Shown piece by piece: positions 568-31,269 of a stretch of 64,000 bases of DNA. Position numbers and translations under genes: made by a program. The stretch lies in the IMG/VR virus record IMGVR_UViG_3300022562_001240. The stretch is one strand, 5' to 3'. The DNA is from a virus. The notes under the pieces are model-generated. The model was not told where the DNA came from and did no database searches. It saw nothing but the letters and a program-made list of their open reading frames with translations. Each line of letters starts with the position of its first letter. Position 1 is the first letter of the stretch.

Positions 568-640
568 GCAGAATGATGGGACTCGAACCCACAACTCACC
601 GGTTCTTTTCCGGCTGCTCTACCATTGAGCTACATTCGGG
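568..640 (-). tRNA. tRNA-like, class I shape, anticodon AAG (Leu codon CUU), A at position 33
   Basis: 73 nt; anticodon arm GCCGG-AAAAGAA-CCGGT; T-loop TTCGAGT; acceptor has 1 mismatch; short variable loop. Confidence 0.45.
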
Positions 641-708
641 TGTCCGGTTTATTCGCCCCAGACAGGGCAGGTTTCAAGATTGATTATCTTGTTGCAGATT
701 TACATCTG

Positions 709-779
709 CGGTGCCAGCAGGAATCGAACCTGCATCTCCTAAATTCCAATTAGGTGCTCTCCCTTTGAGCGATGGCGGT
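709..779 (-). tRNA. tRNA-like, class I shape, anticodon GGA (Ser codon UCC), weak acceptor stem
   Basis: perfect anticodon arm CCTAA-TTGGAAT-TTAGG, D-arm GCTC/GAGC, T-arm GCAGG-TTCGATT-CCTGC; only 4/7 acceptor pairs. Confidence 0.35.
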
Positions 780-943
780 ACACACGCAACCTCACTACAA
801 CATTCCGTCCACTTCTCCCTCTGGCACTCGGCAAAGAGGCTTCGAAGAAAGGTTTGTTGCAATAAGCGTCCATGCGTCCCCAGATCCGTCCGCCTTGCTC
901 GGTTCTAGCTAGTCTACCGTCAAGCTACGGCTTCTCTGAGAAG

Positions 944-1018
944 TCAGGATGAGAGGATTTGAACCTCCGAACCTTCTGGTCCCGAACCAGACGCTCTACC
1001 AAGCTGAGCTACATCCTG
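944..1018 (-). tRNA. tRNA-Pro(CGG)
   Basis: cloverleaf on rc: acceptor CAGGATG/CATCCTG, anticodon loop TTCGGGA, T-loop TTCAAAT. Confidence 0.8.
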
Positions 1019-1023
1019 TTGAG

Positions 1024-1096
1024 TGGGCAATGAGGGATTCGAACCCCCGACTTCCTCCTTGTAAGGGAGGCACTCTAGCCGCTGAGTTAATCGCCC
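1024..1096 (-). tRNA. tRNA-Val(TAC)
   Basis: acceptor GGGCGAT/ATTGCCC, anticodon arm CCTCC-CTTACAA-GGAGG, T-loop TTCGAAT. Confidence 0.8.
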
Positions 1097-1097
1097 G

Positions 1098-1703
1098 TTA
1101 TGTTGGCTCTCCTGAACGAAGTCGTTGAAGCATCTCACGAAGTTCGCTCGTTTCGCCTTCTCGAATCATCTGCAATGGAACCTTCCCGTTGAACGCCGGA
1201 TTGGGTCTCTCCAAGAACTCGTCAATCGCAGACTCTTCTATCACTTCTCTCAAGGCGGCTCGAAAGTTCTCTACCGCCAAGTAGAATTTCTCGTCGTCCG
1301 TCAATTCACGGACATCTTCGTGCTTCCCATCATCTGATGTTTTCGTCACCCATGATGAGATGCCATCCTTCCCTAGTTTTTCTTTGTCTTCAACAGTCTT
1401 CCATCCAGTTGCAATGGAGTAAAGCTCCTGTTGATCTCGTCCTCGATTTCGTTTCTGCCACTCTCGCTCCATGTAGCAACAACCGATGCTCGATGTGCGA
1501 GAGAATCGAGCCGAGGTTTCTGGTTTGATCGTTCCGCAGCCATAACAAAAATTGGACTGCCGACCGTCTCTTTCCTTCAACCACGTCCCACACTGATGAC
1601 ACACGACCATTTCGCAGCGTTCGCAGCGATCTGGGGCTTTCTGAACATTTTCGGCAAGTGCCAAACAAAAAGCACATTCGTAGTCTTCAGTGTATTCGGC
1701 CAT
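1098..1703 (-). CDS. Cys-rich zinc-ribbon protein (hypothetical)
   Basis: ORF 1098..1772 trimmed to Met MAEYTEDYE because the upstream part is a tRNA read as protein; CxxC pairs CAFC, CERC, CHQCG, CYGCG. Confidence 0.5.
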   Translation of the reverse strand: MAEYTEDYECAFCLALAENVQKAPDRCERCEMVVCHQCGTWLKERDGRQSNFCYGCGTIKPETSARFSRTSSIGCCYMEREWQKRNRGRDQQELYSIATGWKTVEDKEKLGKDGISSWVTKTSDDGKHEDVRELTDDEKFYLAVENFRAALREVIEESAIDEFLERPNPAFNGKVPLQMIREGETSELREMLQRLRSGEPT

Positions 1704-1715
1704 GTCTTCTCCAAG

Positions 1716-1786
1716 AGCTTCCACGAGGAATCGAACCCCGGTTTCCTCGGTACGAACGAGGCGTAATCCCACTATACCACGGAAGC
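1716..1786 (-). tRNA. tRNA-Thr(CGT)
   Basis: acceptor GCTTCCG/TGGAAGC, anticodon arm CCTCG-TTCGTAC-CGAGG, T-loop TTCGATT. Confidence 0.75.
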
Positions 1787-1839
1787 AAGAATTTGTCTCC
1801 CCTGCTTAGATAAGTTATACCCCACATGGAGAAGAACTT

Positions 1840-2013
1840 ATGTCAGAGAACAACTTTCGCATCTTTTGCGTTGCGGCAATCATCGCTATGTTTGCCCTCA
1901 TCGGTTGGGCCATTTATCACCATATTGAACACGACTACCACGAGCAGGACATTCGCATCCAGTCACCGTGGTTTGAATACAAAGGCGACGGCCATTACAA
2001 GGTCCGACCTTAA
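1840..2013 (+). CDS. small membrane protein (57 aa, hypothetical)
   Basis: ATG preceded by GGAGAAG; MSENNFRIFCVAAIIAMFALIGWAIYHH... fits between two tRNAs; not in the supplied ORF track in this frame. Confidence 0.4.
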   Translation: MSENNFRIFCVAAIIAMFALIGWAIYHHIEHDYHEQDIRIQSPWFEYKGDGHYKVRP

Positions 2014-2014
2014 G

Positions 2015-2087
2015 AGCTACCGAGAGGAATCGAACCCCCAACCTGAGCTTTACAAAAGCCCTGCTCTGCCAGTTGAGCTACGGTAGC
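2015..2087 (-). tRNA. tRNA-Thr(TGT)
   Basis: acceptor GCTACCG/CGGTAGC, anticodon arm GGGCT-TTTGTAA-AGCTC, T-loop TTCGATT. Confidence 0.8.
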
Positions 2088-2093
2088 ACTGAG

Positions 2094-2164
2094 TTGGGTA
2101 AGGTGGAATCGAACCACCGTTTTCCGCTTATCAGACGGATGCCTTTCCATTAGACGACTACCCA
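2094..2164 (-). tRNA. tRNA-Ile(GAT)
   Basis: acceptor TGGGTAG/TTACCCA, anticodon loop CTGATAA, T-arm GGTGG-TTCGATT-CCACC. Confidence 0.7.
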
Positions 2165-2168
2165 ATGT

Positions 2169-2876
2169 TTACATCTTAATCGCTGCGGGATTCCTTGCTT
2201 TGATAGTCATGCCGAGTTCATCGAAGATGTAGTTGAAAATCGGCTGCCATATCGCATAGCGAGGATACCTCATATCCAAAACAATAGAATGGCTATTGTC
2301 AGGATATCTCTCTGCATGTGCCTCAAAGACTTGAATTCGGAACGTCATCAAGCTGGGAATATCATCCCATTTGTTGTCGGCCCAAACTGCGTCTTGAAAC
2401 ACGCACAAAACAAAGTCACGATTCTGTCGGAGGTCAGCAATGACATCATGCAAATACATCACCTCTTCCAACTTCGTCGTGGGAGTATTGGTTCTGAGAA
2501 TCAACGGGCGGTGAGCCGTTTTGATCCTGTTGACCAACTTGGACATATCGTGCGTTTTGATGAACTTTCTGTAACATTCATCTTTGTCGCTACCAACACG
2601 CCAATGGTGCGCCGAAATGATGCCGCTGATTTTGTCTTTGACAAACCATTTGGTGCCACTTCTGCACGTCCCATAAAAATCCAAGTCATCTAGCGAACCA
2701 AAAAACCCTTCGAACTCTTTGCTCAATGCGGTTGCGAGTTCTCCCAGATTGTTCGTCGCCAGATCGTCAAGCTCATCCCGGCGTTTCATGATCCGCAAGT
2801 CGCTCAAAACCTTTGCGACAAAGCAGTTCTTGCCGAGTCCAATGATATCTCGTTCCATACGGTTTTCCTCCAGCAA
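2169..2876 (-). CDS. hypothetical protein (235 aa)
   Basis: long ORF between tRNA blocks; no confident domain call. Confidence 0.5.
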   Translation of the reverse strand: MLEENRMERDIIGLGKNCFVAKVLSDLRIMKRRDELDDLATNNLGELATALSKEFEGFFGSLDDLDFYGTCRSGTKWFVKDKISGIISAHHWRVGSDKDECYRKFIKTHDMSKLVNRIKTAHRPLILRTNTPTTKLEEVMYLHDVIADLRQNRDFVLCVFQDAVWADNKWDDIPSLMTFRIQVFEAHAERYPDNSHSIVLDMRYPRYAIWQPIFNYIFDELGMTIKARNPAAIKM

Positions 2877-2900
2877 TATCTAGGAGAAATAACCGTCAAG

Positions 2901-2974
2901 TGGGCGTGGGAAGATTCGAACTTCCGACTTCCATCTTATCAGGATGGCACTCTAAACCGCTGAGTTACACGCCC
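2901..2974 (-). tRNA. tRNA-Ile(GAT) second copy
   Basis: acceptor GGGCGTG/CACGCCC, anticodon arm CCATC-CTGATAA-GATGG, T-loop TTCGAAT. Confidence 0.8.
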
Positions 2975-3094
2975 ATGGTGGCCGACTAGGGATTCGAACC
3001 CAAGCAGACGACTTCGCTAACTATGAACCCGCCGAAGCAGGGTTTTGTCTCCCGTCATCTGGTATTTCCGAAAACTCGGCCTCTAAATACCCTC

Positions 3095-3334
3095 ATGAGA
3101 TTCAAAGACTGGCTACTTTCTGAAAACGGCAATCGCACAGGAGCAAAGATCGGACTCTACGCTCCTATCGATGACGCTCTCGGCCAATATCCGCCACTCT
3201 ATGGCACTCCATCTGCCGCCGATCTGATCACTTACATCGACATTCACTACGGCAAGAAAGGCGTGCCCGGCAAGAACGGAATCATCCGTTATCCTGAACC
3301 TCACCACGCTGTCGGCCAAGGCCGAAAACGCTAG
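3095..3334 (+). CDS. hypothetical small protein
   Basis: ORF 3023..3334 trimmed to internal Met MRFKDW to avoid a tRNA-like element. Confidence 0.3.
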   Translation: MRFKDWLLSENGNRTGAKIGLYAPIDDALGQYPPLYGTPSAADLITYIDIHYGKKGVPGKNGIIRYPEPHHAVGQGRKR

Positions 3335-3407
3335 TGGAATGGATGGGACTTGAACCCACAACCCTCGGCTTGCAAAGCCGATGCTCTCCCAGTTGAGCTA
3401 CCACCCC
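3335..3407 (-). tRNA. tRNA-Ala(TGC)
   Basis: acceptor GGGGTGG/CCATTCC with G-U pairs, anticodon arm TCGGC-TTTGCAA-GCCGA, T-loop TTCAAGT. Confidence 0.8.
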
Positions 3408-3641
3408 TTATCTGTAATCGTCTCGATCATCATATTCCAGATGATCTTGATCCCAACGAGCCTTTCGGCTCTGGTACTGGCGATTGGCTTCCAGCCGTGC
3501 CGCCAGATCAACGCTCCGTTTCCGTGACTGTTCCAACTTTTGTACTAGGTCGGCGACACGGGCCTCCAACCATTGGACATACTCCTCGGTGTAGATGTTC
3601 GTGTCTTCAATCGTCTTCGGACCACGGAACTCTTCATCCAT
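3408..3641 (-). CDS. hypothetical protein (77 aa)
   Basis: charged helical small ORF. Confidence 0.35.
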   Translation of the reverse strand: MDEEFRGPKTIEDTNIYTEEYVQWLEARVADLVQKLEQSRKRSVDLAARLEANRQYQSRKARWDQDHLEYDDRDDYR

Positions 3642-3656
3642 CTGAGCTTCCTTGTG

Positions 3657-4034
3657 TCAGATCCCTGCGCCACTATCCAGCAGTGCTTCTTCGTGACGCT
3701 TTCGCTGTTCCTCACACCACGCATCGTACACGGCCAGTTGTCGGTAGAACTCCTCGATCTGAGGAAGGAACTCCCGGTCCAGTTCGTGATTCAAAAACGG
3801 ACGAGTCAGAAACAACTTGCAGTTCTCACATTCCATCCCCGCACCGGCAGAATGGAAAGCACACTCGGCATACTGCTCAATGTCTATCTCATCAACCTTG
3901 AGCGTCTGGTGCCAATGTTTTGCTTCCAAAACTTTTGGGCAGTGTCGCAAGAACTCCTTTGGAAATTCTGGCGGCTTCATGCCGTTCTCCTTATCAGCGT
4001 TTCCATCGTTTCCACAGACGTTCGAACAATTCAA
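3657..4034 (-). CDS. hypothetical protein (125 aa)
   Basis: ORF with several Cys/His; no domain call. Confidence 0.4.
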   Translation of the reverse strand: MNCSNVCGNDGNADKENGMKPPEFPKEFLRHCPKVLEAKHWHQTLKVDEIDIEQYAECAFHSAGAGMECENCKLFLTRPFLNHELDREFLPQIEEFYRQLAVYDAWCEEQRKRHEEALLDSGAGI

Positions 4035-4106
4035 CCAAGCTCACGATCAGTATGATCCGACTGAACTGTAGCGAAAGTTCGCTCACCTTTGGTAGTTTCT
4101 TCATAG

Positions 4107-4179
4107 TGGACCGGAGGGGAATCGAACCCCACACACCGATGTTGCGAGCATCAGTCGCCCCCTTGGAACATGCCAGCCC
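4107..4179 (-). tRNA. tRNA-Ala(CGC)
   Basis: acceptor GGGCTGG/CCGGTCC, anticodon arm TGATG-CTCGCAA-CATCG, T-loop TTCGATT. Confidence 0.7.
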
Positions 4180-4210
4180 ATAGTATGACTCATTCGATGA
4201 ATGAATCAAG

Positions 4211-4283
4211 TGGAGGATAACGGACTTGAACCGATGACCTACTGGCTGCCAGCCAGTCGCTCTCCCAACTGAGCTAATCCCCC
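4211..4283 (-). tRNA. tRNA-Ala(GGC)
   Basis: acceptor GGGGGAT/ATCCTCC, anticodon arm ACTGG-CTGGCAG-CCAGT, T-loop TTCAAGT. Confidence 0.8.
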
Positions 4284-4477
4284 GTCAATCAAAAAAGAAC
4301 AACAACACATAAAGAACCAATGCGATGATGAAAGCGATTCCCGCAATCACACATCCTGTCAGTGCCGCTGTCCAAAGTGCTGCTTCCATGCAACCCTCAA
4401 AGTTTGTGAAAATGTTCGGTCGGGACTCGGACCCGATCCTTTGATCTCTCAATGTGCTTTAGAACACCCCCGAACAG

Positions 4478-4549
4478 TGGTCGCTATTGGATTCGAACCA
4501 ATGACTTCCGCCATGTGAAGACGGCACTCTACCGCTGAGTTAAGCAACC
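4478..4549 (-). tRNA. tRNA-Val(CAC)
   Basis: acceptor GGTTGCT/AGCGACC, anticodon arm CCGTC-TTCACAT-GGCGG, T-loop TTCGAAT. Confidence 0.8.
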
Positions 4550-4557
4550 AGCATAAG

Positions 4558-4629
4558 TGAGCGAGGCAGGATTCGAACCTGCGACTTCCACCATGTCAGG
4601 GTGGCGATCTGCCGCTGATCTACACGCTC
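4558..4629 (-). tRNA. tRNA-Val(GAC)
   Basis: acceptor GAGCGTG/CTCGCTC, anticodon arm CCACC-CTGACAT-GGTGG, T-loop TTCGAAT. Confidence 0.8.
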
Positions 4630-4633
4630 ATAG

Positions 4634-4704
4634 TACCCAGTAGAGGAATCGAACCCCTTCTAACACGTTCGAAGCGTGTCGTGCATCCATCACACTCACC
4701 GGGC
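4634..4704 (-). tRNA. tRNA-Arg(TCG)
   Basis: 71 nt; acceptor GCCCGGT/ACTGGGT (G-U pairs), anticodon arm ACACG-CTTCGAA-CGTGT, T-loop TTCGATT. Confidence 0.65.
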
Positions 4705-4741
4705 ATGTAGTGCCCCATGGTAGGGACACCACTTCACTTCC

Positions 4742-5287
4742 TTATTCCTCTTCAGGTTTTTCAGGAAGAGGGTCGTGTACGATTTCTCGTACAGCTTTCT
4801 CCATTTGTATGAGTTTGGCTCGGGTGATGGCTCTGACTAGGAAACCATCTCTCCCAACATCCAATGACAACTCATTTCTGATCGTTGTTTTGGTTCCATT
4901 CGCTTTGATGTGAGTGTGAAGCACATATCCTTTGATTTCGCTGTGTTCACTCACCAGTTCGGTGATGATCAAGACCTCGCCCTTCTTTCGAGTGACGACT
5001 TCTGTGAACTGCATCTCTTCGCCATTGCGAACAACGACTCGATGCCACACCAGAACCAGTTGCCATCCGCCTTTCGGCGTGAAGACAACACCAATTTCAC
5101 GAACCTCCCTTTTCACCAACTCAGCACCGCTTCGTTCGACAATCCTTTTGTCGCTGCTCGGCAGTGCGAGCATTGAACTCACCAAGTCAAACGGTTTGTT
5201 CAATTCGTATTCGTTACTCACCTCAACAGCTTGGGCAACTGAAGTGAGCAGAAACAGGCTGGCAATCGCCAGCAGTAATGCTCTCAT
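4742..5287 (-). CDS. secreted protein (signal peptide), hypothetical
   Basis: N-terminus MRALLLAIASLFLLTSVAQA is signal-peptide-like. Confidence 0.55.
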   Translation of the reverse strand: MRALLLAIASLFLLTSVAQAVEVSNEYELNKPFDLVSSMLALPSSDKRIVERSGAELVKREVREIGVVFTPKGGWQLVLVWHRVVVRNGEEMQFTEVVTRKKGEVLIITELVSEHSEIKGYVLHTHIKANGTKTTIRNELSLDVGRDGFLVRAITRAKLIQMEKAVREIVHDPLPEKPEEE

Positions 5288-5313
5288 GTGAGACTCCTGT
5301 GGTTAGGTCTAGC

Positions 5314-5814
5314 CTATATATCCACAGAGTCTCTCAGTATGCCCAGTTCTACCAACTCGTCTTCTGTTAGGAGATCGAAACCCGTCCAATTCCGCCGTTT
5401 CAATGTCACTATCCAATGACATCGAACACAACGAACTTCACATTTCTCGATCTCATCCAGTATTGCCTCCCAAGACCAACCATTCCAAACCATCACCGAG
5501 ACATCATTTTCCTTATCTCTTAGATGGTCGAATTCCAAAAGAGCCGGATTTGTCTCTCCGCAATCCACACAGGGATGCTCTCTCAGATATTCAAATAGAA
5601 GAACGAGATTCTGTTGGCGAACCACCTTGTTTCTCTTCTTCGCTTTGTCTTTGTAGTAATCTTGGTTGGCCTCGTAGTGTTTCTTGAGATATTTCTTGTG
5701 GCACTTTTTGCATTTCGACTGATACTTCTGTCTGCCGTCTGCATAAGAACCTTTCTTCGAAAACTCAGAAACAGGTTTGTCGAGGTTGCAACCGGTGCAA
5801 AACCTTACTTCCAT
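5314..5814 (-). CDS. HNH homing-type endonuclease
   Basis: N-terminal Cys cluster plus C-terminal motif EFDHL...N...CVRCH. Confidence 0.7.
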   Translation of the reverse strand: MEVRFCTGCNLDKPVSEFSKKGSYADGRQKYQSKCKKCHKKYLKKHYEANQDYYKDKAKKRNKVVRQQNLVLLFEYLREHPCVDCGETNPALLEFDHLRDKENDVSVMVWNGWSWEAILDEIEKCEVRCVRCHWIVTLKRRNWTGFDLLTEDELVELGILRDSVDI

Positions 5815-5851
5815 GTAACCTGCCTTCGATCACAACATCATGTTGTGATAG

Positions 5852-5923
5852 TACACCCGGAGGGATTCGAACCCCCGACCGACTGCTTAGAAGGCAGTTG
5901 CTCTTCCACTGAGCTACGAGTGC
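5852..5923 (-). tRNA. tRNA-Arg(TCT)
   Basis: acceptor GCACTCG/CGGGTGT, anticodon arm ACTGC-CTTCTAA-GCAGT, T-loop TTCGAAT. Confidence 0.75.
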
Positions 5924-5930
5924 ATGTCAG

Positions 5931-6009
5931 AGGCCGCAGGCGGATTCGAACCACTTGACGCCAGATTTGCAGTCTGGTGCTCCACCACGAAGCTTTCGTC
6001 TCCACGGCC
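5931..6009 (-). tRNA. tRNA-Cys(GCA)-like, 79 nt with an extended D region
   Basis: acceptor GGCCGTG/TGCGGCC, anticodon arm CCAGA-CTGCAAA-TCTGG, T-loop TTCGAAT; residues 8-26 span 25 nt and include a perfect hairpin ACGAA-AGC-TTCGT. Confidence 0.5.
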
Positions 6010-6083
6010 AGTGAGTTGTTGGCGTCATGATTTACGACCTTTGCTCTTATCACTGGGACGGTCAAGCAGGGACCAACAACAAG

Positions 6084-6156
6084 CGAGCCATACGGGAGTC
6101 GAACCCGCAACCTCTTCCGTGACAGGGAAGTGAGCTACCATCTGCTCCTATGGCCC
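6084..6156 (-). tRNA. tRNA-Asp(GTC)
   Basis: acceptor GGGCCAT/ATGGCTC, anticodon arm CTTCC-CTGTCAC-GGAAG, T-loop TTCGACT. Confidence 0.8.
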
Positions 6157-6263
6157 TTAAAAATCAACCGGTTTACTATCGAACGTCCCAGCTTAAGTGT
6201 ACAATTCCACTGGGCACCTTCAACAAGGTTAGGCTTGTACTTTGCCACACGAGCCGGTTGAAG

Positions 6264-6337
6264 TGGAAGCGGTGGGAATCGAACCCACATGGTCCCGGTT
6301 AAGAGCCGGGTGCAATTACCTTGTCTGCCACACTTCC
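6264..6337 (-). tRNA. tRNA-Lys(CTT)
   Basis: acceptor GGAAGTG/CGCTTCC, anticodon arm CCCGG-CTCTTAA-CCGGG, T-loop TTCGATT. Confidence 0.75.
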
Positions 6338-6528
6338 ATTTCCTACACCACCTTCAGCTTTCTTTCCTTGGGCTTCTGTGGTTCGTGCGTCTGGCGGATC
6401 GTATTGATCCCTACATCCTTGTATGCCAGATGCGTCGGTTCGCCCTTCTGGGCACGTTTCGCTGCTGCTTCATTCAAAGCGATAATCGTTTCCAAACACC
6501 ACATTCTCAAGTTCCTTCTCTTCTGAGG

Positions 6529-6819
6529 TTAGTCATCCCAGACAGCTTCGAGGGACCATCCTATTCGAAACCATACAACTCTGGGCTTTTCCCGGTAGTC
6601 GAGGACAGCGACCTTGTAGATTCGCTGGCCGTCGTTTTTGTACCAGAAAGGTCCGTATGAAAAAACTGGTTCTTCGATACTGACCACTTGGCAACGATTG
6701 TCTTCACACCATTCTTTGATCTCTTCACGATTGGATTGCCCTGTCCACGTCGCCAAGGCGATGCAGAAGGCCAACACCAGCAAAAATCCGATTGCTGTAA
6801 GTATCCAATTCTTTTCCAT
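6529..6819 (-). CDS. small membrane-anchored protein (hypothetical)
   Basis: ORF 6529..6900 trimmed to Met MEKNWILTAIGFLLVLAF because the upstream codons overlap a tRNA. Confidence 0.4.
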   Translation of the reverse strand: MEKNWILTAIGFLLVLAFCIALATWTGQSNREEIKEWCEDNRCQVVSIEEPVFSYGPFWYKNDGQRIYKVAVLDYREKPRVVWFRIGWSLEAVWDD

Positions 6820-6841
6820 GATGAGATCCTTCACATCAGAG

Positions 6842-6915
6842 CGAGGATGACGGGACTCGAACCCGCAACCACCGGCTCGACAGGCCGGTACTCTAACCAA
6901 TTGAGCTACATCCCC
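6842..6915 (-). tRNA. tRNA-Asp(GTC) second copy (G at position 37)
   Basis: acceptor GGGGATG/CATCCTC, anticodon arm CCGGC-CTGTCGA-GCCGG, T-loop TTCGAGT. Confidence 0.7.
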
Positions 6916-6950
6916 TTTTATATCATCCCAACCTTTCAGTCAAGATGAAG

Positions 6951-7021
6951 CTGCCCAACTTGGATTCGAACCAAGGCTAACTGAGTCAGAGTCAGTCGTG
7001 CTACCGCTACACTATCGGGCA
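6951..7021 (-). tRNA. tRNA-Gln(CTG)
   Basis: acceptor TGCCCGA/TTGGGCA, anticodon arm ACTGA-CTCTGAC-TCAGT, T-loop TTCGAAT. Confidence 0.75.
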
Positions 7022-7042
7022 ATGTGTCGTGTATTCTTTAAG

Positions 7043-7113
7043 CTGCCCGGCAAGGGTTCGAACCTCGGCCAACTGATTCAAAGTCAGTTATGCTACCACT
7101 ACACCACCGGGCA
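7043..7113 (-). tRNA. tRNA-Gln(TTG)
   Basis: acceptor TGCCCGG/CCGGGCA, anticodon arm ACTGA-CTTTGAA-TCAGT, T-loop TTCGAAC. Confidence 0.75.
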
Positions 7114-7129
7114 AAAAAATTGGGAGGAG

Positions 7130-7202
7130 TGCCCCCTGTAGGATTCGAACCCACACCTATCTGATTAAAAGTCAGAAATGCTCCCATTAACACCAAGGAG
7201 GC
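7130..7202 (-). tRNA. tRNA-Lys(TTT)
   Basis: acceptor GCCTCCT/AGGGGGC, anticodon arm TCTGA-CTTTTAA-TCAGA, T-loop TTCGAAT. Confidence 0.75.
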
Positions 7203-7206
7203 AGAG

Positions 7207-7279
7207 TGGGACCGCTCGGAATCGAACCGAGAACCTACCGGTTAAAAGCCGGTTGCTCTGCCTGTTGAGCTACGATCCC
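7207..7279 (-). tRNA. tRNA-Lys(TTT) second copy
   Basis: acceptor GGGATCG/CGGTCCC, anticodon arm ACCGG-CTTTTAA-CCGGT, T-loop TTCGATT. Confidence 0.75.
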
Positions 7280-7351
7280 ATGTTTATGAGATCGTGCGTT
7301 TCAATCGTTGAGTGTTCATGGAAAAATCTCCTTCTATGGTTTGTGTATGAG

Positions 7352-7424
7352 AGACTCGGGTGGGATTTGAACCCACGACATGCTGGTTAACAGCCAGCCG
7401 CTCTGGCCTCTGAGCTACCGAGTC
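7352..7424 (-). tRNA. tRNA-Asn(GTT)
   Basis: acceptor GACTCGG/CCGAGTC, anticodon arm GCTGG-CTGTTAA-CCAGC, T-loop TTCAAAT. Confidence 0.8.
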
Positions 7425-7431
7425 AGCCAAG

Positions 7432-7503
7432 CTCCGGGAACAGGTCTCGAACCTATAATAACTGGTTAACAGCCAGTCGTGATACCAATTTCACCATCCC
7501 GGA
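7432..7503 (-). tRNA. tRNA-Asn(GTT) second copy
   Basis: acceptor TCCGGGA/TCCCGGA, anticodon arm ACTGG-CTGTTAA-CCAGT, T-loop TTCGAGA. Confidence 0.7.
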
Positions 7504-7510
7504 ATGTAAG

Positions 7511-7581
7511 AGCGGGTGAAGGGAATCGAACCCTCATAGCCAGCTTGGAAGGCTGGAGCTTTGCCATTAAGCTACACCCGC
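7511..7581 (-). tRNA. tRNA-Gly(TCC)
   Basis: acceptor GCGGGTG/CACCCGC, anticodon arm CCAGC-CTTCCAA-GCTGG, T-loop TTCGATT. Confidence 0.8.
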
Positions 7582-7590
7582 ATGTTTAAG

Positions 7591-7662
7591 AGCCGGTAGA
7601 GGGAATCGAACCCCCGACAAGTTGTTTACAAAACAACCACTCTGCCACTGAGTTACACCGGC
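7591..7662 (-). tRNA. tRNA-Thr(TGT) second copy
   Basis: acceptor GCCGGTG/TACCGGC, anticodon arm GTTGT-TTTGTAA-ACAAC, T-loop TTCGATT. Confidence 0.75.
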
Positions 7663-7762
7663 GTTCTGTTGAAGGCTGCGTTACGGCCACGGCTAGGTCC
7701 ACACCACTGAGGGCTCGCCAAGTTCGTCCTCCGACTTTGGTTCATGCCGCTGGTTCAACAAG

Positions 7763-7835
7763 TATCCCCGAGAAGATTCGAACTTCTTCTTCCACCTTCG
7801 CAGGGTGACGTGCTTATCCATCACACTCCGGGGAT
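7763..7835 (-). tRNA. tRNA-Arg(GCG)
   Basis: acceptor ATCCCCG/CGGGGAT perfect, anticodon arm TCACC-CTGCGAA-GGTGG, T-loop TTCGAAT. Confidence 0.7.
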
Positions 7836-7924
7836 ATTACTGCGGATCGTGAATCGGATACTATCCGAAACGACTAAGGCTAATTCCGCAAAGCCCCAAC
7901 ACTTTAGTTCTTGTGTTGTTTCAG

Positions 7925-7995
7925 CAGGAGCGGGAGGACTCGAACCCCCACCAACGGTTTTGGAGACCGACATGCTACCATTACACCACGCACCT
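7925..7995 (-). tRNA. tRNA-Trp(CCA)
   Basis: anticodon loop CTCCAAA, T-arm GGGGG-TTCGAGT-CCTCC, acceptor 6/7 pairs. Confidence 0.65.
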
Positions 7996-8000
7996 GTGTT

Positions 8001-8027
8001 CAACATGTCCACGACGTGGACATGTTG
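8001..8027. repeat. perfect 13-bp-arm inverted repeat caacatgtccacg/cgtggacatgttg
   Basis: read directly; immediately downstream of tRNA-Trp on the minus strand. Confidence 0.8.
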
Positions 8028-8030
8028 GTG

Positions 8031-8150
8031 AAACGTGTCGAAGTTTTTGCATTTTTTCGACACGTTTCTGGAACGTGTCGAAGTTTTTGCATTTTTTCGA
8101 CACGTTTCTGGAACGTGTCGCAATTTTTGCATTTTTGCGACACGTTTTTG
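8031..8150. repeat. three tandem ~40-bp units, each an internal 9-bp-stem palindrome (cgtgtcgaa-N13-ttcgacacg)
   Basis: units at ~8033-8072, 8073-8112, 8113-8150; the third unit has compensatory cgcaa/ttgcg changes. Confidence 0.85.
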
Positions 8151-8177
8151 TGACATGTCGTTATCGGCGACATGTCA
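8151..8177. repeat. inverted repeat tgacatgtcg-N7-cgacatgtca
   Basis: read directly. Confidence 0.75.
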
Positions 8178-8180
8178 AAG

Positions 8181-8311
8181 TCGGGGAGGTAGGATTCGAA
8201 CCTACAATCTTCAGTTCCAAAATACTGATGCTTGTTTGTAAGTTTCGCATGTGGGGGACGCCGAGGCGTCCAAGTTTGAGAAACTGGTGTTAACCATTTA
8301 GCTTCTCCCCG
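8181..8311 (-). tRNA. interrupted tRNA (anticodon region ATTTTGGA, TTG-like, 8-nt loop) carrying a ~60-nt conserved insert
   Basis: 5' half CGGGGAG-AA-GCTA...; 3' half TCAGT-loop-ACTGA, GTAGG-TTCGAAT-CCTAC, CTCCCCG; insert holds hairpin GGACGC-C-GCGTCC; paralogous to the 31142..31269 gene. Confidence 0.55.
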
Positions 8312-8312
8312 A

Positions 8313-8385
8313 GTAGCGACGGCTGGACTCGAACCAGCACTAACCGGCTTATGAAACCAGTGCTTTACCTTTAAGCTACGTCGCC
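8313..8385 (-). tRNA. tRNA-Met(CAT) elongator type (or Ile-lysidine type)
   Basis: acceptor GGCGACG/CGTCGCT, anticodon arm CTGGT-TTCATAA-GCCGG, T-loop TTCGAGT. Confidence 0.7.
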
Positions 8386-8388
8386 ATA

Positions 8389-8679
8389 TCAAACGATGAA
8401 CTTCCCTTGCAGGATGAACATCTCAAGCTGGTCGATTTCCTTCTTCGCTTTGACCAGATCTTTCGTTCGCAATCCGTAAGGACAGTCTTCGACGAAGTAC
8501 GCCATTGCTGCTGCCTTTGCATCGTGAACCGAATACTGATCGAGCGGATCGACATACCTTTTCGACAAGACAACCATCTGAACTGACCAGATTGCCCGAC
8601 TCCGAATTTGCTCTTCGGTGATCGGTTCTTTAGGTTCAGGCGGCTTCCGTCTAAAGAGACGAACCAGCCAGCCAAACAT
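8389..8679 (-). CDS. hypothetical protein (96 aa)
   Basis: ORF directly downstream of the tRNA block. Confidence 0.4.
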   Translation of the reverse strand: MFGWLVRLFRRKPPEPKEPITEEQIRSRAIWSVQMVVLSKRYVDPLDQYSVHDAKAAAMAYFVEDCPYGLRTKDLVKAKKEIDQLEMFILQGKFIV

Positions 8680-8729
8680 TTTGCCTCCGAGGACTTGCTA
8701 TACACATAGCTACTCCTCATAAGGCAAGG

Positions 8730-8803
8730 TCGGGAAGACAGGATTCGAACCTGCGACCCCCTGCTCCCAAAGCAGGTGCTCTACCAAGCTGAGCTACTTC
8801 CCG
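8730..8803 (-). tRNA. tRNA-Pro(TGG)
   Basis: acceptor CGGGAAG/CTTCCCG, anticodon arm CCTGC-TTTGGGA-GCAGG, T-loop TTCGAAT. Confidence 0.8.
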
Positions 8804-8909
8804 ATTGTAACCATCCAAGTCGATGCAGCAGGTGTCCCCTGCGCCCATGGCAGGGGACAAACAAATCCGAAGTTTTGTTTGTAAGCTCCATCAGTAGGAG
8901 ATGGTCAAG

Positions 8910-8981
8910 TCCTCCCGGCTGGAATCGAACCAGCGTGTACGGTTCCACAAACCGCCGCTCTCGCCACTGAGCTACAGAAGG
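8910..8981 (-). tRNA. tRNA with GTG anticodon (His-like) lacking the G-1:C73 pair
   Basis: acceptor CCTTCTG/CGGGAGG, anticodon arm GCGGT-TTGTGGA-ACCGT, T-loop TTCGATT; A at position 73. Confidence 0.55.
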
Positions 8982-8989
8982 ATAAAAAG

Positions 8990-9113: not shown

Positions 9114-9161
9114 GGTTGTTGAATGACACGAACCATAAAGAATGGTTCGCAGCATTCGAGT

Positions 9162-9234
9162 CAGGATGAAAGGATTTGAACCTTCGACCTTCTGGCCCCC
9201 AGCCAGACGCTCTCCCAAACTGAGCTACATCCTG
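9162..9234 (-). tRNA. tRNA-Pro(GGG)
   Basis: acceptor CAGGATG/CATCCTG, anticodon arm TCTGG-CTGGGGG-CCAGA, T-loop TTCAAAT. Confidence 0.8.
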
Positions 9235-10152: not shown

Positions 10153-10154
10153 AG

Positions 10155-28170: not shown

Positions 28171-29757
<1,587 letters not shown>

Positions 29758-29760: not shown

Positions 29761-29803
29761 GAAACAAAAAAGGGGAAGTCCACACATCGTGTATGGCTTC
29801 CCC
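29761..29803 (-). terminator. intrinsic terminator ending the 30.8-29.8 kb tRNA transcript
   Basis: 7-bp stem ggggaag/cttcccc followed on the minus strand by TTTTTTTGTTTC. Confidence 0.6.
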
Positions 29804-29843
29804 GGTGTAAGATTTCCCACTCAAGTCGAAGGACCGTTACAGG

Positions 29844-29916
29844 TAAACATCACGGGATTCGAACCCGTGACCTTCAGTTCCTTAAACTGATGCTCAACCA
29901 ACTGAGCTAGATGTTT
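29844..29916 (-). tRNA. class-I-shaped tRNA with anticodon AAG (Leu codon CUU)
   Basis: acceptor AAACATC/GATGTTT perfect, D-arm GCTC/GAGC, anticodon arm TCAGT-TTAAGGA-ACTGA, T-arm ACGGG-TTCGAAT-CCCGT; short variable loop. Confidence 0.55.
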
Positions 29917-29946
29917 GTATGATCCGTCAGTAGGGAGTGGGAAAAG

Positions 29947-30075
29947 TGCCGGGGGTGGGAATCGAACCCACGTCAAACGTCGAAAACACGTTCTTCATCC
30001 AGTTTGTATGCTTCACGGGTCGGGGACGGATCGAAACCCGTCCAAGTCTGCCAAGCAAGGTCGCTAAACCCCGGC
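29947..30075 (-). tRNA. interrupted tRNA (anticodon TTT-like) carrying the conserved insert in the D region
   Basis: acceptor GCCGGGG/CCCCGGC; 3' half AACGT-GTTTTCG-ACGTT, GTGGG-TTCGATT-CCCAC; insert hairpin GGACGGG-UUUCGAU-CCGUCC. Confidence 0.5.
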
Positions 30076-30134
30076 TTGTGATGATCCACTTACACGGGCA
30101 AGCCCGTTTATCGCAGAGGGCAGAGGTGTTCGGT

Positions 30135-30306
30135 TAGCCGTTGCCGAAGACAGCCTGCGGACGCAGGGTAATGTCACCGGTTTCGGCGTTCTTGTCAATC
30201 GCAAACTGCGCCAACTTCGCAGGCGGGGCCTCCAAGTGGCGAGCCACAGCCTGTCGGACTTCTGCTTCCGATGACAGTTCGCCGATGTCGAGATCGTTGA
30301 ACGTCA
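30135..30306 (-). CDS. small beta-grasp-like ORF (possible GTG start; reading frame stays open upstream to ~30384 with no ATG)
   Basis: my own translation: ...VHIRYEGHSYDVTFNDLDIGELSSEAEVRQAVARHLEAPPAKLAQFAIDKNAETGDITLRPQAVFGNG*; the overlapping track ORF 30195..30548 in another frame is Arg-rich junk. Confidence 0.25.
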
Positions 30307-30559
30307 CGTCGTAAGAGTGTCCTTCGTATCGGATGTGTACCTGTGCCTCCTCTCTTTCCTGAGTGATCTCCAGTTTGTTGTGTCATCTGCCAGCATTGTA
30401 TGGCAGGTTTTGGAAGTGGTTTAACCAGCATTCCAAATTTTGTATCCGGTTCCAGAGTCGCCTTCTTTCCTCTGGTATCAGTCACCGTTCGCAATGCAAC
30501 GGACTGCCGTTCAAACCGAATCTCTTGTAATGTGTCCGCCCAAGTCAAAGGACCGTTTC

Positions 30560-30630
30560 GATAAACAGTTGGAATCGAACCAACGGTTCAAGCTTGGAGT
30601 GCTTGCGTGCTACCATTGCACAATGTTTGT
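30560..30630 (-). tRNA. tRNA-Gly(TCC)-like with C at position 33
   Basis: acceptor ACAAACA/TGTTTAT 6/7, D-arm GTGC/GCAC, anticodon arm CAAGC-ACTCCAA-GCTTG, T-arm GTTGG-TTCGATT-CCAAC. Confidence 0.5.
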
Positions 30631-30657
30631 ATGATCCCTTCGTGGGGGGCGGACAAG

Positions 30658-30791
30658 TGGCGAAGGCTGGAGTCGAACCAGCATAGCGTCATTATGAGTG
30701 ACGGGTAAACCGATTGTTTGTAGGCTTCACATGTAGGGGACAGACCGAGGCCCGTCCAAGTTTGCCAAGCGTGAAACTGTTGCTTCTTCGC
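30658..30791 (-). tRNA. interrupted tRNA-Met(CAT)-like carrying the conserved insert
   Basis: acceptor GGCGAAG/CTTCGCC; 3' half CGTCA-CTCATAA-TGACG, GCTGG-TTCGACT-CCAGC; insert hairpin GGACGGGCC-UCG-GUCUGUCC. Confidence 0.55.
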
Positions 30792-30807
30792 CGTATTGTC
30801 GCCAGAG

Positions 30808-31011
30808 TCAAACGACTCTGACATTTTCGGCTCGGGGGCCTTTGTCCCCTTTGCCAACTTCGAACTCGACAGTCTGCCCTTCAACCAGATCGTTGAAGTC
30901 AACGCCCTTGTCCAGAGCAGACATGTGGAAAAACAAATCCTTGCTCTCTCCCTCTCGGGAGATGAAGCCGAAGCCTTTTTCCATTAGCTTCTTGATGGTG
31001 CCTTTGGGCAT
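30808..31011 (-). CDS. cspA: cold-shock protein (CspA family)
   Basis: MPKGTIKKLMEKGFGFISREGESKDLFFHMSALD... carries RNP-1/RNP-2-type motifs; ORF trimmed to the MPKG start. Confidence 0.75.
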   Translation of the reverse strand: MPKGTIKKLMEKGFGFISREGESKDLFFHMSALDKGVDFNDLVEGQTVEFEVGKGDKGPRAENVRVV

Positions 31012-31061
31012 CCTGTCCTCACGTTTCCTGTAGCGGATTAAAAAATAACCATCCAAGTTTA

Positions 31062-31082
31062 TGCAGCAGGTGCCCGGCACTC
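31062..31082 (-). promoter_or_regulatory. stable hairpin in the csp 5' leader (gcccggc-actcatg-gccgggc)
   Basis: 7-bp GC stem ~50 nt upstream of the csp start. Confidence 0.3.
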
Positions 31083-31141
31083 ATGGCCGGGCCAAACTTC
31101 CGAAGATGTTTGTAAGCTCCATAGGTTGGAGATGGTCGAAG

Positions 31142-31269
31142 CGGGGGAGGTAGGATTCGAACCTACAATCTTCACTTTTCAAGAGTGATGCTGTTTGTAT
31201 GCTTTATCTTGTGGGGGGCATCGCAAGATGCCCAAGTCAGAAAAGCGGAAGCCGTTTAGCTTCTCCCCC
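31142..31269 (-). tRNA. interrupted class-I-shaped tRNA with anticodon TGA (Ser codon UCA) carrying the conserved insert
   Basis: acceptor GGGGGAG/CTCCCCC; 3' half TCACT-CTTGAAA-AGTGA, GTAGG-TTCGAAT-CCTAC; insert hairpin GGGCATC-UUGC-GAUGCCC; paralogous to 8181..8311. Confidence 0.5.

What the first reader, a model, noticed from the sequence alone, without database searches (positions are those of the whole stretch)
568..31269. Class-I-shaped tRNAs with Leu (AAG x2) and Ser (GGA, TGA) anticodons; no class II tRNA anywhere in the window
In roughly 50 tRNAs I found no Leu, Ser or Tyr tRNA with a long variable arm, and no Phe. Four tRNA-like genes (568-640, 709-779, 29844-29916, 31142-31269) carry anticodons AAG, GGA, AAG and TGA with 4-5-nt variable loops. 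SerRS and LeuRS depend on the long variable arm, so such tRNAs would not be charged normally. They could be missense or recoding tools, decoys, or degenerate copies. An A34 anticodon (AAG) would also need inosine modification.
Basis: inference. Interest (0 to 1): 0.6.

Follow-up and report, generated by a model that had tools for sequence, protein, structure and literature searches.

The report
Phage Ro60-linked tRNA look-alikes
The four odd 'Leu/Ser' tRNAs are probably not a recoding kit: two are tRNA-shaped parts of small RNAs joined to a conserved stem module beside a giant-phage Ro60 gene, with anticodons that differ from phage to phage, and two are damaged cloverleafs at the end of an otherwise normal tRNA array.

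Summary
Observation partly confirmed. ARAGORN and Infernal call AAG (566-639), GGA (708-779) and AAG (29842-29916) in short-variable-loop cloverleafs. They find no class II, Phe, Tyr or Cys tRNA in the window. The fourth locus (31142-31269, loop CUUGAAA) is not class-I shaped. It carries an insert of about 65 nt between a D-arm-like hairpin and the anticodon arm.

The four loci are not one class. 29842-29916 lies 105 nt upstream of, and on the same strand as, a 522-aa gene with a Ro60 (TROVE+vWA) fold. Its leader and trailer pair in a covarying 7-bp stem. Relatives at the matching position keep body and flanks but carry CUU, ACG, AUU or UAG. The family as a whole also shows UGA, UCA, AUG and CAU.

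31142-31269 belongs to a second family with the same module as an internal hairpin. Its relatives mostly carry GAA.

566-639 (A33, C73, mismatch) and 708-779 (acceptor 4/7) are defective, and no homologues were found.

Best reading: Ro60-associated, Y-RNA-like tRNA mimics plus two decayed or non-decoding copies. Recoding is unsupported because codon usage and ORFs are ordinary. Related phages encode normal class II Ser, Tyr and Leu tRNAs. Ro60 binding and charging are untested.

The parts
566..639 (-). Finding locus 1: class-I cloverleaf with anticodon position AAG, but loop AAAAGAA (A33), a C2:U71 mismatch and C73. It is bracketed by a 24-nt direct repeat (546-569 and 645-668).
708..779 (-). 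Finding locus 2: cloverleaf with loop UUGGAAU (GGA). The acceptor stem pairs at only 4 of 7 positions (ACC/ACC internal loop). RNAfold extends the stem into the flanks, but the fold is not significant (z -1.4).
29816..29941 (-). Type-1 RNA containing finding locus 3. Leader arm CCCACUC (29935-29941), then CCUAC, then UAC, then tRNA 29842-29916 (loop UUAAGGA, A73, CC), then ACUU, then trailer arm GAGUGGG (29816-29822).
31142..31269 (-). Finding locus 4: type-2 tRNA-like RNA. Acceptor GGGGGAG/CUCCCCC, a D-arm-like hairpin, an internal module (ACUU-GGGCAUC-loop-GAUGCCC-CCCAC...UACAAAC), an anticodon arm with loop CUUGAAA, and a T arm.
28171..29739 (-). Ro60 (TROVE + vWA, invariant DxSxS) homologue. 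It lies 105 nt downstream of locus 3 on the same strand.
30535..30653 (-). Second type-1 RNA. The tRNA at 30560-30630 has loop ACUCCAA (UCC, C33); relatives carry CUUCUAA (UCU). Leader arm UCCGCCC pairs with trailer arm GGGCGGA.
29947..30075 (-). Type-2 tRNA-like RNA with acceptor GCCGGGG/CCCCGGC, the internal module and loop GUUUUCG. The L005 relative at the matching position shows compensatory changes in the anticodon stem.
30658..30792 (-). Type-2 tRNA-like RNA with acceptor GGCGAAG/CUUCGCC, the internal module and loop CUCAUAA (CAU). The CAU loop recurs in many relatives.
8181..8311 (-). Type-2 paralogue of locus 4 inside the main array. It has an 8-nt loop, AUUUUGGA.
8990..9113 (-). Type-2 tRNA-like RNA (acceptor GGGGGUG/CACCUCC), hit by the Rfam tmRNA model below threshold.
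9422..9566 (-). Type-2 RNA with an intact D arm. The module lies between position 26 and an anticodon arm with loop CUUCUAA.
9603..9743 (-). Type-2 RNA with an intact D arm. The module is followed by loop AUUCCAA.
31049..31135 (-). Module unit without a tRNA body. Leader CCAUCUCC..UACAAAC, two hairpins, trailer ACUUGGAUGG. A paralogue lies at 8811-8904.
8811..8904 (-). Paralogue of the body-less module unit.
420..10955 (-). Main tRNA array: 40 ARAGORN genes, including loci 1 and 2. The other 38 all have U33, four of them carry one non-pairing stem position, and their discriminator bases vary by anticodon class. The array is interspersed with small ORFs.

Best explanation
The window comes from a huge phage. 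It carries a normal array of class-I decoder tRNAs, and separately a repertoire of at least nine tRNA-like small RNAs built around one conserved RNA module.

The module is: stem 2, then an internal loop (ACUU on one strand, CC-YAC on the other), then stem 1, followed by the single-stranded motif UACAAAC.

In type-1 RNAs, which include locus 3 (29842-29916), the 5' leader and 3' trailer form the module and close over a complete cloverleaf. In type-2 RNAs, which include locus 4 (31142-31269), the same module is a capped hairpin inserted between the D arm and the anticodon arm.

Five of these RNAs, plus a body-less module unit, sit directly upstream of a phage Ro60 gene on the same strand. I infer that they are this phage clade's Y RNAs. 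On this reading the module is the Ro60-binding platform and the tRNA-shaped domain is the effector or decoy end. Their 'Leu' and 'Ser' anticodons would then be incidental states of a loop that is not held by decoding.

Loci 1 and 2 (566-639, 708-779) are defective cloverleafs at the far end of the array. They are most likely decayed duplicates or further non-decoding mimics.

The missing class II tRNAs are presumably supplied by the host or by the part of the genome outside the window.

Shown here: the structures, the covariation, the Ro60 fold, the synteny and the anticodon turnover. Inferred: Ro60 binding, the lack of decoding, and any role against host enzymes that target tRNAs.
For: 1. Ro60 identity.
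- The AF2 model has mean pLDDT 87.
- The top 12 PDB matches are all Ro60/Rsr, including Thermus phage phiLo Ro60, with E from 5e-12 to 5e-8 and TM 0.54-0.67.
- Family members hit Pfam 'Ro60 vWA' at about 1e-5.
- D342, S344 and S346 (DxSxS) are invariant.

2. Position. Locus 3 lies 105 nt upstream of Ro60 and locus 4 lies 1.4 kb upstream, both on the same strand. The same layout occurs in L002-L005 and in about 25 metagenome loci.

3. Leader-trailer stem, anchored by motif and not by complementarity.
- 98.8% of cells pair.
- All 7 pairs show changes on both sides.
- 34 compensatory cells were observed against 8.2 in shuffles (0 of 500 shuffles reach the observed value).
- Sliding the partner drops pairing to 48% or less.
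- G:U pairs are present, so the pairing is at the RNA level.

4. Anticodon turnover.
- The alignment of relatives at the matching position keeps the acceptor stem, D arm, T arm and both flanks, but the anticodon is AAG, ACG, AUU or UAG and CUU in the 78%-identical relative L005.
- The neighbouring gene is UCC with C33 here and UCU in five relatives.
- Anticodon positions 35-36 are among the highest-entropy columns of the alignment, 1.6-1.8 of a possible 2 bits.
- Six of 27 members have A34, including AUU and AUG. Some carry UCA or UUA.
- Other tRNA-like calls in these loci have 6- or 8-nt loops.

5. Locus 4 family.
- It has seven members in six phages.
- 16 of 26 predicted pairs have compensatory changes, including both module stems.
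- Four members have a CUGAA loop (GAA). The window copies read CUUGAAA and AUUUUGGA, and L004 reads AUUUGAA.

6. Folds of loci 3 and 4 with their flanks are more stable than shuffles (z -3.6, -3.8 and -4.2) and show the module.

7. Loci 1 and 2 are the worst cloverleafs in the window.

8. Precedent. Y RNAs encoded upstream of Ro60 with tRNA-like domains occur in bacteria and phages (PMC4201824). Phage phiLo Ro60 binds two upstream Y-like RNAs (PMC12135203). TROVE proteins with a tRNA-like partner are noted in jumbo phages (PMC7824862).
Against: - No Rfam Y_RNA or YrlA match reaches threshold at these loci.
- The published Ro60-contact motifs (GGUCCGA; GNCGAAN0-1G) are not present as such. The leader has GUCCCC and the trailer ACUUGGAC. 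The likeness to vertebrate ACUUGAC rests on my memory of hY sequences.
- Ro60 binding is untested.
- Module-bearing RNAs also sit inside the main array, about 20 kb from Ro60.
- All relatives were fetched through the Ro60 gene, so the association is subject to ascertainment bias.
- Type-1 genes look like working tRNAs. They have a 7-bp acceptor stem, mostly U33 and a purine at 37, and CCA is encoded in about half of them.
- Leu-type anticodons are over-represented (10 of 27), and most members with G36 have G37.
- There are no comparative data at all for loci 1 and 2.
Confidence: 0.58

Rival explanations
1. Locus 3, and perhaps the whole type-1 family, is a genuine class-I tRNA that gets charged and decodes. 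For example, it could be a short-arm tRNA-Leu reading CUN. The leader-trailer stem would then be only a phage-specific precursor-processing or stabilising structure, possibly chaperoned by Ro60.
For: - The cloverleaf is canonical at 68 bits, with A73, U33 and G37 after G36.
- CCA is encoded in about half of the relatives.
- NAG or CAA anticodons occur in 10 of 27 members.
- More distant relatives (L042, L045, L081) hold a coherent lineage of class-I-size tRNA-Leu with A73, beside class II Ser and Tyr.
- E. coli LeuRS does not need the long arm (own knowledge).
- M. smegmatis YrlA is cut by RNase P and receives CCA (PMC4201824).
Against: - The anticodon changes between close relatives at the matching position while the body is kept: AAG versus CUU at 78% Ro60 identity, and UCC versus UCU.
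- A34 in AAG, AUU and AUG is not used by bacterial decoders apart from Arg-ACG (own knowledge).
- Several members have C33.
- The body differs from the L045-type class-I Leu lineage.
- One body would have to satisfy several synthetases that read the anticodon.
Confidence: 0.2
2. The module is an intron-like or spacer processing signal. A phage or host endonuclease would cut at ACUU... and ...UAC|AAAC. Type-2 genes would then be interrupted or split tRNAs that are spliced or work as two pieces. On this reading locus 4 is a real tRNA whose consensus anticodon is GAA (Phe).
For: - The same half-motifs flank stand-alone tRNAs and interrupt type-2 genes.
- Removing the insert from 9422-9566 would leave a perfect tRNA(UCU).
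- GAA and CAU loops recur across relatives.
- The window has no other Phe gene.
Against: - No RNA ligase or splicing endonuclease was found among the roughly 60 window ORFs scanned.
- In locus 4 and its paralogue, removing the module still leaves an abnormal D region.
- The GAA triplet slides within the loop, and one paralogue has an 8-nt loop.
- Some type-2 RNAs have no anticodon arm at all.
- The module's internal loop and UACAAAC are conserved in sequence, like a binding site.
Confidence: 0.12
3. All four are simply decaying tRNA pseudogenes with no function.
For: Loci 1 and 2 have structural defects and no detected homologues.
Against: Loci 3 and 4 belong to families kept across dozens of divergent phages, with compensatory changes in every stem.
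Confidence: 0.05
4. They are missense, suppressor or recoding tRNAs, charged with a non-cognate amino acid to alter how host or phage messages are decoded.
For: - The anticodons are uncoupled from the body.
- UCA, UUA and CUA anticodons occur in relatives.
Against: - Window ORFs are long and intact under code 11.
- Leu is 7.9% of codons, Ser 6.2%, and CUU is 15% of Leu codons, so there is no sign of avoidance or reassignment.
- No synthetase is encoded in the window.
- The defects of loci 1 and 2 argue against ribosome use.
Confidence: 0.05

Closest known systems
Bacterial Y RNAs with tRNA-like domains (YrlA of Salmonella and Mycobacterium; Yrn1 of Deinococcus), partners of Ro60/Rsr (PMC4201824)
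   Same: - Several small RNAs are encoded just upstream of Ro60 on the same strand.
- A stem is formed by the 5' and 3' ends, combined with a tRNA-like domain that has a canonical T arm.
- As in Yrn1, the closing stem leaves from the acceptor side.
- There are also copies without a tRNA domain, like YrlB and Yrn2.
   Different: - The tRNA domain here is a complete cloverleaf with a 7-nt anticodon loop and often an encoded CCA.
- The anticodon turns over between relatives.
- The module sequence (ACUU / CC-YAC / UACAAAC) is not the GNCGAA or GGUCCGA motif.
- The Rfam YrlA and Y_RNA models do not match.
- A second topology carries the module as an insert at position 26.
Thermus phage phiLo Ro60 with Yrl1 and Yrl2 (PMC12135203; PDB 9KOP, 9L5Y)
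   Same: - A phage-encoded Ro60 with Y-like RNAs upstream of the gene.
- The window protein matches this structure by fold and weakly by sequence.
   Different: - The phiLo Yrl RNAs are described as stem-bulge-stem RNAs with a CGAA motif, not as cloverleaf tRNAs.
- Sequence identity is about 15%.
Class-I (short variable arm) tRNA-Leu and tRNA-Ser of animal mitochondria
   Same: Leu or Ser anticodons on a tRNA without the long arm.
   Different: - Those are conserved decoders with matched synthetases.
- Here the anticodon is not conserved, two copies are defective, and the host is presumably bacterial.
Class-I-size tRNA-Leu lineage in related huge-phage arrays (L042, L045, L081; seen here)
   Same: Short-arm tRNAs with Leu anticodons in the same broad phage group.
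   Different: - Those share a distinct body (GGCACCGUAGCCCAACGGCAGAGGC, a 3-bp D stem, A73) and form a consistent isoacceptor set inside ordinary arrays.
- None of the four window loci resembles them.

Membership tests
Bacterial elongator tRNA-Leu | Long variable arm (class II) | tested here: not met
   Variable loops are 5 nt in 566-639 and 29842-29916.
Bacterial elongator tRNA-Leu | Discriminator A73 and a standard anticodon loop (U33, purine 37) | tested here: inconclusive
   29842-29916 has A73, U33 and G37. 566-639 has C73 and A33.
Bacterial elongator tRNA-Leu | Anticodon conserved among orthologues | tested here: not met
   Relatives at the matching position carry CUU, ACG, AUU or UAG. 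The family as a whole also shows UGA and UCA.
Bacterial tRNA-Ser | Long variable arm read by SerRS | tested here: not met
   The variable loop is 4 nt in 708-779 and 5 nt in 31142-31269.
Bacterial tRNA-Ser | Intact 7-bp acceptor stem and a normal D arm | tested here: not met
   708-779 pairs at 4 of 7 acceptor positions. 31142-31269 has an insert of about 65 nt after a D-like hairpin.
Y RNA / YrlA (partner of Ro60) | Encoded within about 4 kb of a Ro60 orthologue on the same strand | tested here: met
   The Ro60 fold is shown. Locus 3 lies 105 nt upstream and locus 4 lies 1.4 kb upstream. This does not hold for loci 1 and 2, which are about 27 kb away.
Y RNA / YrlA (partner of Ro60) | Stem formed by the 5' and 3' ends, or an equivalent helix with an internal loop, supported by covariation | tested here: met
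   98.8% of cells pair, 7 of 7 pairs covary, 0 of 500 shuffles reach the observed value. One search shows the same for the internal version.
Y RNA / YrlA (partner of Ro60) | tRNA-like domain with a T arm | tested here: met
   Rfam tRNA hits at 68.3 and 30.3 bits.
Y RNA / YrlA (partner of Ro60) | Conserved Ro60-contact motif (GGUCCGA or GNCGAAN0-1G), or a match to the Rfam models | tested here: not met
   No Y_RNA hit, and no YrlA hit at or above the gathering score. The leader reads GUCCCC-YAC.
Y RNA / YrlA (partner of Ro60) | Physical binding to Ro60 | not testable with these tools
   Needs a gel-shift or immunoprecipitation experiment.
Ro60 / TROVE protein (gene 28171-29739) | HEAT-repeat ring plus a vWA domain with a DxSxS metal site | tested here: met
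   (full-length matches to Ro60 structures). (D342, S344 and S346 invariant). Pfam TROVE itself was not detected, and vWA_Ro60 scores below threshold.

The most novel reading that the evidence does not exclude
The Ro60-linked cloverleafs could be a cassette system of complete tRNAs, with CCA often encoded, whose anticodon loops are under diversifying selection. On this reading a phage Ro60 particle presents interchangeable tRNA 'heads' that sense, soak up or repair damage from host anticodon nucleases and other tRNA-targeting defences. Alternatively the heads are charged regardless of their anticodon and act as conditional missense or suppressor tRNAs. Either way it would be a new role for Y RNAs and a new kind of phage counter-defence.
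Probability: 0.15. Interest if true: 0.85.

Novelty: new variant of a known kind. Interest (0 to 1): 0.55.

Why it matters
What the tRNA-like end of bacterial Y RNAs does is still an open question.

This clade of huge phages has a Ro60 family with at least 2000 members scoring E <= 0.001 (the search scored only 8000 candidates), found on contigs up to 693 kb. It carries many Y-like RNAs in which the tRNA domain is a full cloverleaf. That domain is attached to one conserved module in two different topologies, and its anticodon loop changes between close relatives.

This gives a defined and testable system of a protein, a module and swappable heads. It can be used to ask how Ro60 particles engage the tRNA world during infection.

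It also warns annotators. tRNA counts and 'isotype' calls in huge phages include non-decoding mimics. Odd anticodons such as AAG, AUU, AUG, UCA or 8-nt loops should not be read as evidence of recoding.

Tried and rejected
Searches that led nowhere:
- Megablast of 20 kb against INPHARED phages gave no match.
- Exact-match scans of IMG/VR with the window start, with locus 3, and with the repeat flanking locus 1 gave no match.
- I tried to read beyond the window start. The 73-aa ORF is not on record. The 181-aa ORF occurs only on 6-kb and 2.5-kb contigs. The 201-aa ORF has an identical protein on a 120-kb contig, but that DNA was not retrievable.
- Relatives of the 201-aa ORF (L086-L091) have rearranged arrays without counterparts of loci 1 and 2.
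- blastn-short of loci 1 and 2 with flanks against the 84 loci held at that point (L001-L085, before L086-L091 were fetched) found only T-arm matches.

Ideas considered and set aside:
- The ACTTGGAC...TACAAAC motif is only a promoter or terminator pair. The covariation with G:U pairs shows RNA pairing. A DNA-level role for TACAAAC is not excluded, and a sigma-70-like gene lies at 47371-47985.
- The inserts are group I introns. They are too short, and Rfam Intron_gpI hits occur only in relatives, elsewhere.
- The long tRNA-like genes are disguised class II tRNAs. The extra sequence is not in the variable region.
- Locus 1 derives from a neighbouring isoacceptor. Its nearest neighbours are Asp and Ala at 0.73-0.77 identity, which is not informative.
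- The phage uses an alternative genetic code. ORFs and codon usage are ordinary.
- Literature searches for short-arm tRNA-Leu or odd tRNAs in huge phages found nothing on point.

Full report
**What the window is**

All tRNA genes lie on the minus strand. An array of 40 ARAGORN calls runs from 10955 down to 420, and a few more lie between 22.4 and 31.3 kb. Rfam gives 45 tRNA hits.

The proteins include an NAD-dependent DNA ligase, DnaJ, a protein with a major-vault-protein shoulder domain, two ThiF, two JAB, a prokaryotic E2, PhoH and a sigma-70-like factor. No deposited phage matches. Relatives of one gene lie on viral and metagenomic contigs of 84 to 693 kb. The window is therefore part of an uncultured huge phage.

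**Check of the observation**

ARAGORN and Infernal agree on anticodon AAG at 566-639, GGA at 708-779 and AAG at 29842-29916, all with 4-5-nt variable loops.

No gene in the window has a long variable arm, and there is no Phe, Tyr or Cys anticodon. The long Rfam hits carry their extra sequence in the D-loop region or the anticodon loop.

The fourth locus, 31142-31269, has loop CUUGAAA and a 5-nt variable loop. It is 128 nt long, with an insert of about 65 nt.

Quality differs sharply between the loci:
- Of the 42 cloverleaf calls tabulated, 40 have U33.
- 566-639 has A33 (loop AAAAGAA), a C2:U71 mismatch and C73.
- 708-779 pairs at only 4 of 7 acceptor positions, and Infernal aligns only model positions 4-67.
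- 29842-29916 is a clean cloverleaf (68.3 bits) with U33, G37 and A73.

The other 38 array genes cluster by isoacceptor in most families (Pro, Thr, Val, Glu, Gln, Arg). All have U33. Four carry a single non-pairing position in the acceptor or anticodon stem. They look like ordinary decoders.

**The neighbour of locus 3 is Ro60**

The 522-aa ORF at 28171-29739 starts 105 nt downstream of locus 3 on the same strand.
- Sequence searches gave only weak hits to 'TROVE domain-containing protein' 9L5Y/9KOP (E 0.056) and to vWA domains.
- Several of its homologues hit Pfam 'Ro60 vWA domain' at about 1e-5. At least 2000 homologues score E <= 0.001.
- An AlphaFold model built on 47 sequences has mean pLDDT 87.
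- Its 12 best PDB matches are all Ro60: human, Xenopus, Deinococcus Rsr and Thermus phage phiLo. They align over the full length, with E from 5e-12 to 5e-8 and TM 0.54-0.67.
- A DxSxS motif is invariant.

**Locus 3 belongs to a conserved family with changing anticodons**

In three IMG/VR relatives, the tRNA just upstream of the Ro60 gene aligns with locus 3 through the acceptor stem, D arm, T arm and both flanks. Its anticodons there are ACG, AUU and UAG.

In the closest relative with DNA available (L005, 78% Ro60 identity), the anticodon is CUU. The next gene upstream is UCU there, where the window has UCC with C33.

Across 85 loci I collected 27 distinct members that begin (AC)AAAC. Thirteen of them end in an encoded CCA. 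Their anticodons are:
- UAG in six, UCU in five
- AAG in two, AUU in two
- CAG, CAA, CUU, ACG, UGA, UCA, UUA, AUG, CAU, UCG, UUG and UCC once each

Anticodon positions 35-36 are among the most variable columns of the alignment.

**Locus 3 is embedded in a larger structured RNA**

Each member is preceded by a 7-nt arm, then CC-YAC, then 8-9 nt, then YWUAC. The arm ends exactly 18 nt before the tRNA 5' end. Each member is followed by 8-15 nt, then ACUU, then a 7-nt arm.

I took the two arms by these motif anchors, not by complementarity. They pair in 98.8% of cells, and all seven pairs show changes on both sides. There are 34 compensatory cells against 8.2 in shuffles, and 0 of 500 shuffles reach the observed value. 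Sliding one partner drops pairing to 48% or less. G:U pairs occur.

In the window the arms are CCCACUC (29935-29941) and GAGUGGG (29816-29822). A second short helix nearer the tRNA is visible by eye (GGAUC with GGUCC), and RNAfold recovers both helices (z -3.6).

**Locus 4 carries the same module as an internal hairpin**

The motif ACTTGG...TACAAAC occurs seven times in the window, against 0.07 expected, always on the minus strand. In these copies the two arms are adjacent and capped by a loop. The whole element sits inside a tRNA-like gene whose 5' and 3' ends form a perfect 7-bp acceptor stem.

Locus 4, its paralogue 8181-8311 and five relatives from five other phages align. In that alignment 16 of 26 predicted pairs have compensatory changes. 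These include both module stems, the acceptor stem and the T arm.

Four relatives have a CUGAA loop (GAA). The window copies read CUUGAAA and AUUUUGGA (8 nt), and L004 reads AUUUGAA.

Other type-2 RNAs in the window are 29947-30075, 30658-30792 (CAU), 8990-9113, 9422-9566 and 9603-9743. Two units (31049-31135 and 8811-8904) have the leader and trailer but only hairpins between them.

**Interpretation**

The following features match what is described for Y RNAs of bacteria and phages (PMC4201824, PMC12135203, PMC7824862):
- several small RNAs upstream of Ro60 on the same strand
- a stem with an internal loop
- a tRNA-like domain
- companion RNAs without that domain

I therefore read loci 3 and 4 as tRNA-shaped domains of Ro60-associated RNAs. 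Their anticodon loops are not held by decoding. This accounts for A34 anticodons such as AAG, AUU and AUG, for C33, for stop-type anticodons, and for the 6- and 8-nt loops seen in this set. That bacterial decoders use A34 only in Arg-ACG is my own knowledge.

The step from structure to Ro60 binding is inference. The published contact motifs are not present as such, and the Rfam Y_RNA and YrlA models do not match.

**The decoder rival stays open for locus 3**

Locus 3 has every formal feature of a tRNA. Leu-type anticodons are the most common state in its family (10 of 27). More distant relatives carry a coherent class-I-size tRNA-Leu lineage beside class II Ser and Tyr. E. coli LeuRS does not need the long arm (own knowledge).

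**Loci 1 and 2**

No homologue was found in any locus searched or in IMG/VR. A 24-nt direct repeat brackets locus 1. With A33, C73 and a 4/7 acceptor stem, they are poor candidates for decoding. I treat them as decayed copies or further mimics, with low certainty.

**Missing class II tRNAs and recoding**

Leu, Ser, Tyr, Phe and Cys make up about 23% of the codons in 29 window genes, with no unusual codon choice, and the ORFs are intact. These codons must be read by host tRNAs or by genes outside the window.

An identical copy of one window protein is on record on a 120-kb contig, which I could not fetch. More distant relatives encode class II Ser (85-91 nt), Tyr (83-85 nt) and Leu-CAG (84-85 nt). 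Nothing points to recoding.

**Verdict**

The interpretation as uncharged or recoding Leu/Ser decoders is not supported. The decoy or degenerate reading is closer to the evidence.

What is there is a new variant of a known kind: Y-RNA-like tRNA mimics of a huge-phage Ro60, with complete cloverleaf domains, a new binding-type module in two topologies, and turnover of the anticodon.

Noticed in passing
window 23435-23556 and about 23213-23326 (-); also 23049-23139 and 22419-22518: These are tRNA-like genes with a second, unrelated D-loop insert of about 40 nt (GGCCCUUCGGGGAUG.UUGCGGCAGCAAUG.CGUG.UCAUA). They have no usable anticodon loop (19-nt, 3-nt or 27-nt loops). ARAGORN calls one of them Pro(ggg) with an intron.
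   Followed up: partly
L045:2371-3962, L042:1206-1984, L081:5162-5564: Related huge-phage arrays hold a coherent lineage of class-I-size tRNA-Leu (74-78 nt, A73, 3-bp D stem; anticodons CAA, UAA, UAG, GAG, CAG). They sit next to normal class II Ser, Tyr and Leu(CAG). This may be a real short-arm tRNA-Leu family. I found no report of it.
   Followed up: partly
L002:7396-7482 and 8011-8100; also L010 and L016: tRNA-His (with G-1) and tRNA-Asn carry a long extra stem-loop in the variable region (87-94 nt). These are class II-shaped tRNAs for class I amino acids.
   Followed up: partly
L005:8340-8500: A tRNA-like element with a Leu-type D arm (GGCGGAAUUGGUAGACG) is enclosed by a long inverted repeat. 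It lies upstream of the cold-shock and Ro60 cluster. ARAGORN does not call it.
   Followed up: no
L045:1134-1208, L019:3142-3215, L086:10485-10557: Relatives carry tRNAs with stop-codon anticodons UUA, UCA and CUA. The first two belong to the module-flanked family.
   Followed up: no
window 546-569 and 645-668 (-): A 24-nt direct repeat, GCCCYGUSUGGGGCGAAYAAACCG, brackets the tRNA-like gene at 566-639. It contains GGCGAA, which is reminiscent of the YrlA GNCGAA motif but does not match it fully.
   Followed up: partly
window 29760-29800 (-): A hairpin followed by a run of U (GGGGAAGCC...GGACUUCCCC UUUUUU) lies between the small-RNA cluster and the Ro60 start. It looks like an intrinsic terminator. 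The same feature is present in L005.
   Followed up: no
window 30134-30345 (-) and 30808-31011 (-): Two small conserved ORFs sit among the RNAs. One is a cold-shock-domain protein. The other is a roughly 70-aa protein ending ...RPQAVFG(NG). The second is syntenic in L002, L004 and L005, and the window copy has no obvious ATG start.
   Followed up: no
window 14791-18846 and 24366-26109 (-): There are two sets of ubiquitin-like conjugation genes (ThiF, JAB, prokaryotic E2). A 912-aa protein with a major-vault-protein shoulder domain lies at 19510-22248.
   Followed up: no
window 22830-22990 (-): Two short tandem repeat arrays were seen by eye (units like AUAGCGAACUAAG and CACCGUGAUCCCACAAGUGAAGU). 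They lie downstream of the odd tRNA-like genes.
   Followed up: no
L002:3941-5131, L003:1369-1558, L003:17829-17918: Rfam finds group I introns and a bacterial small SRP RNA in related phage contigs.
   Followed up: no
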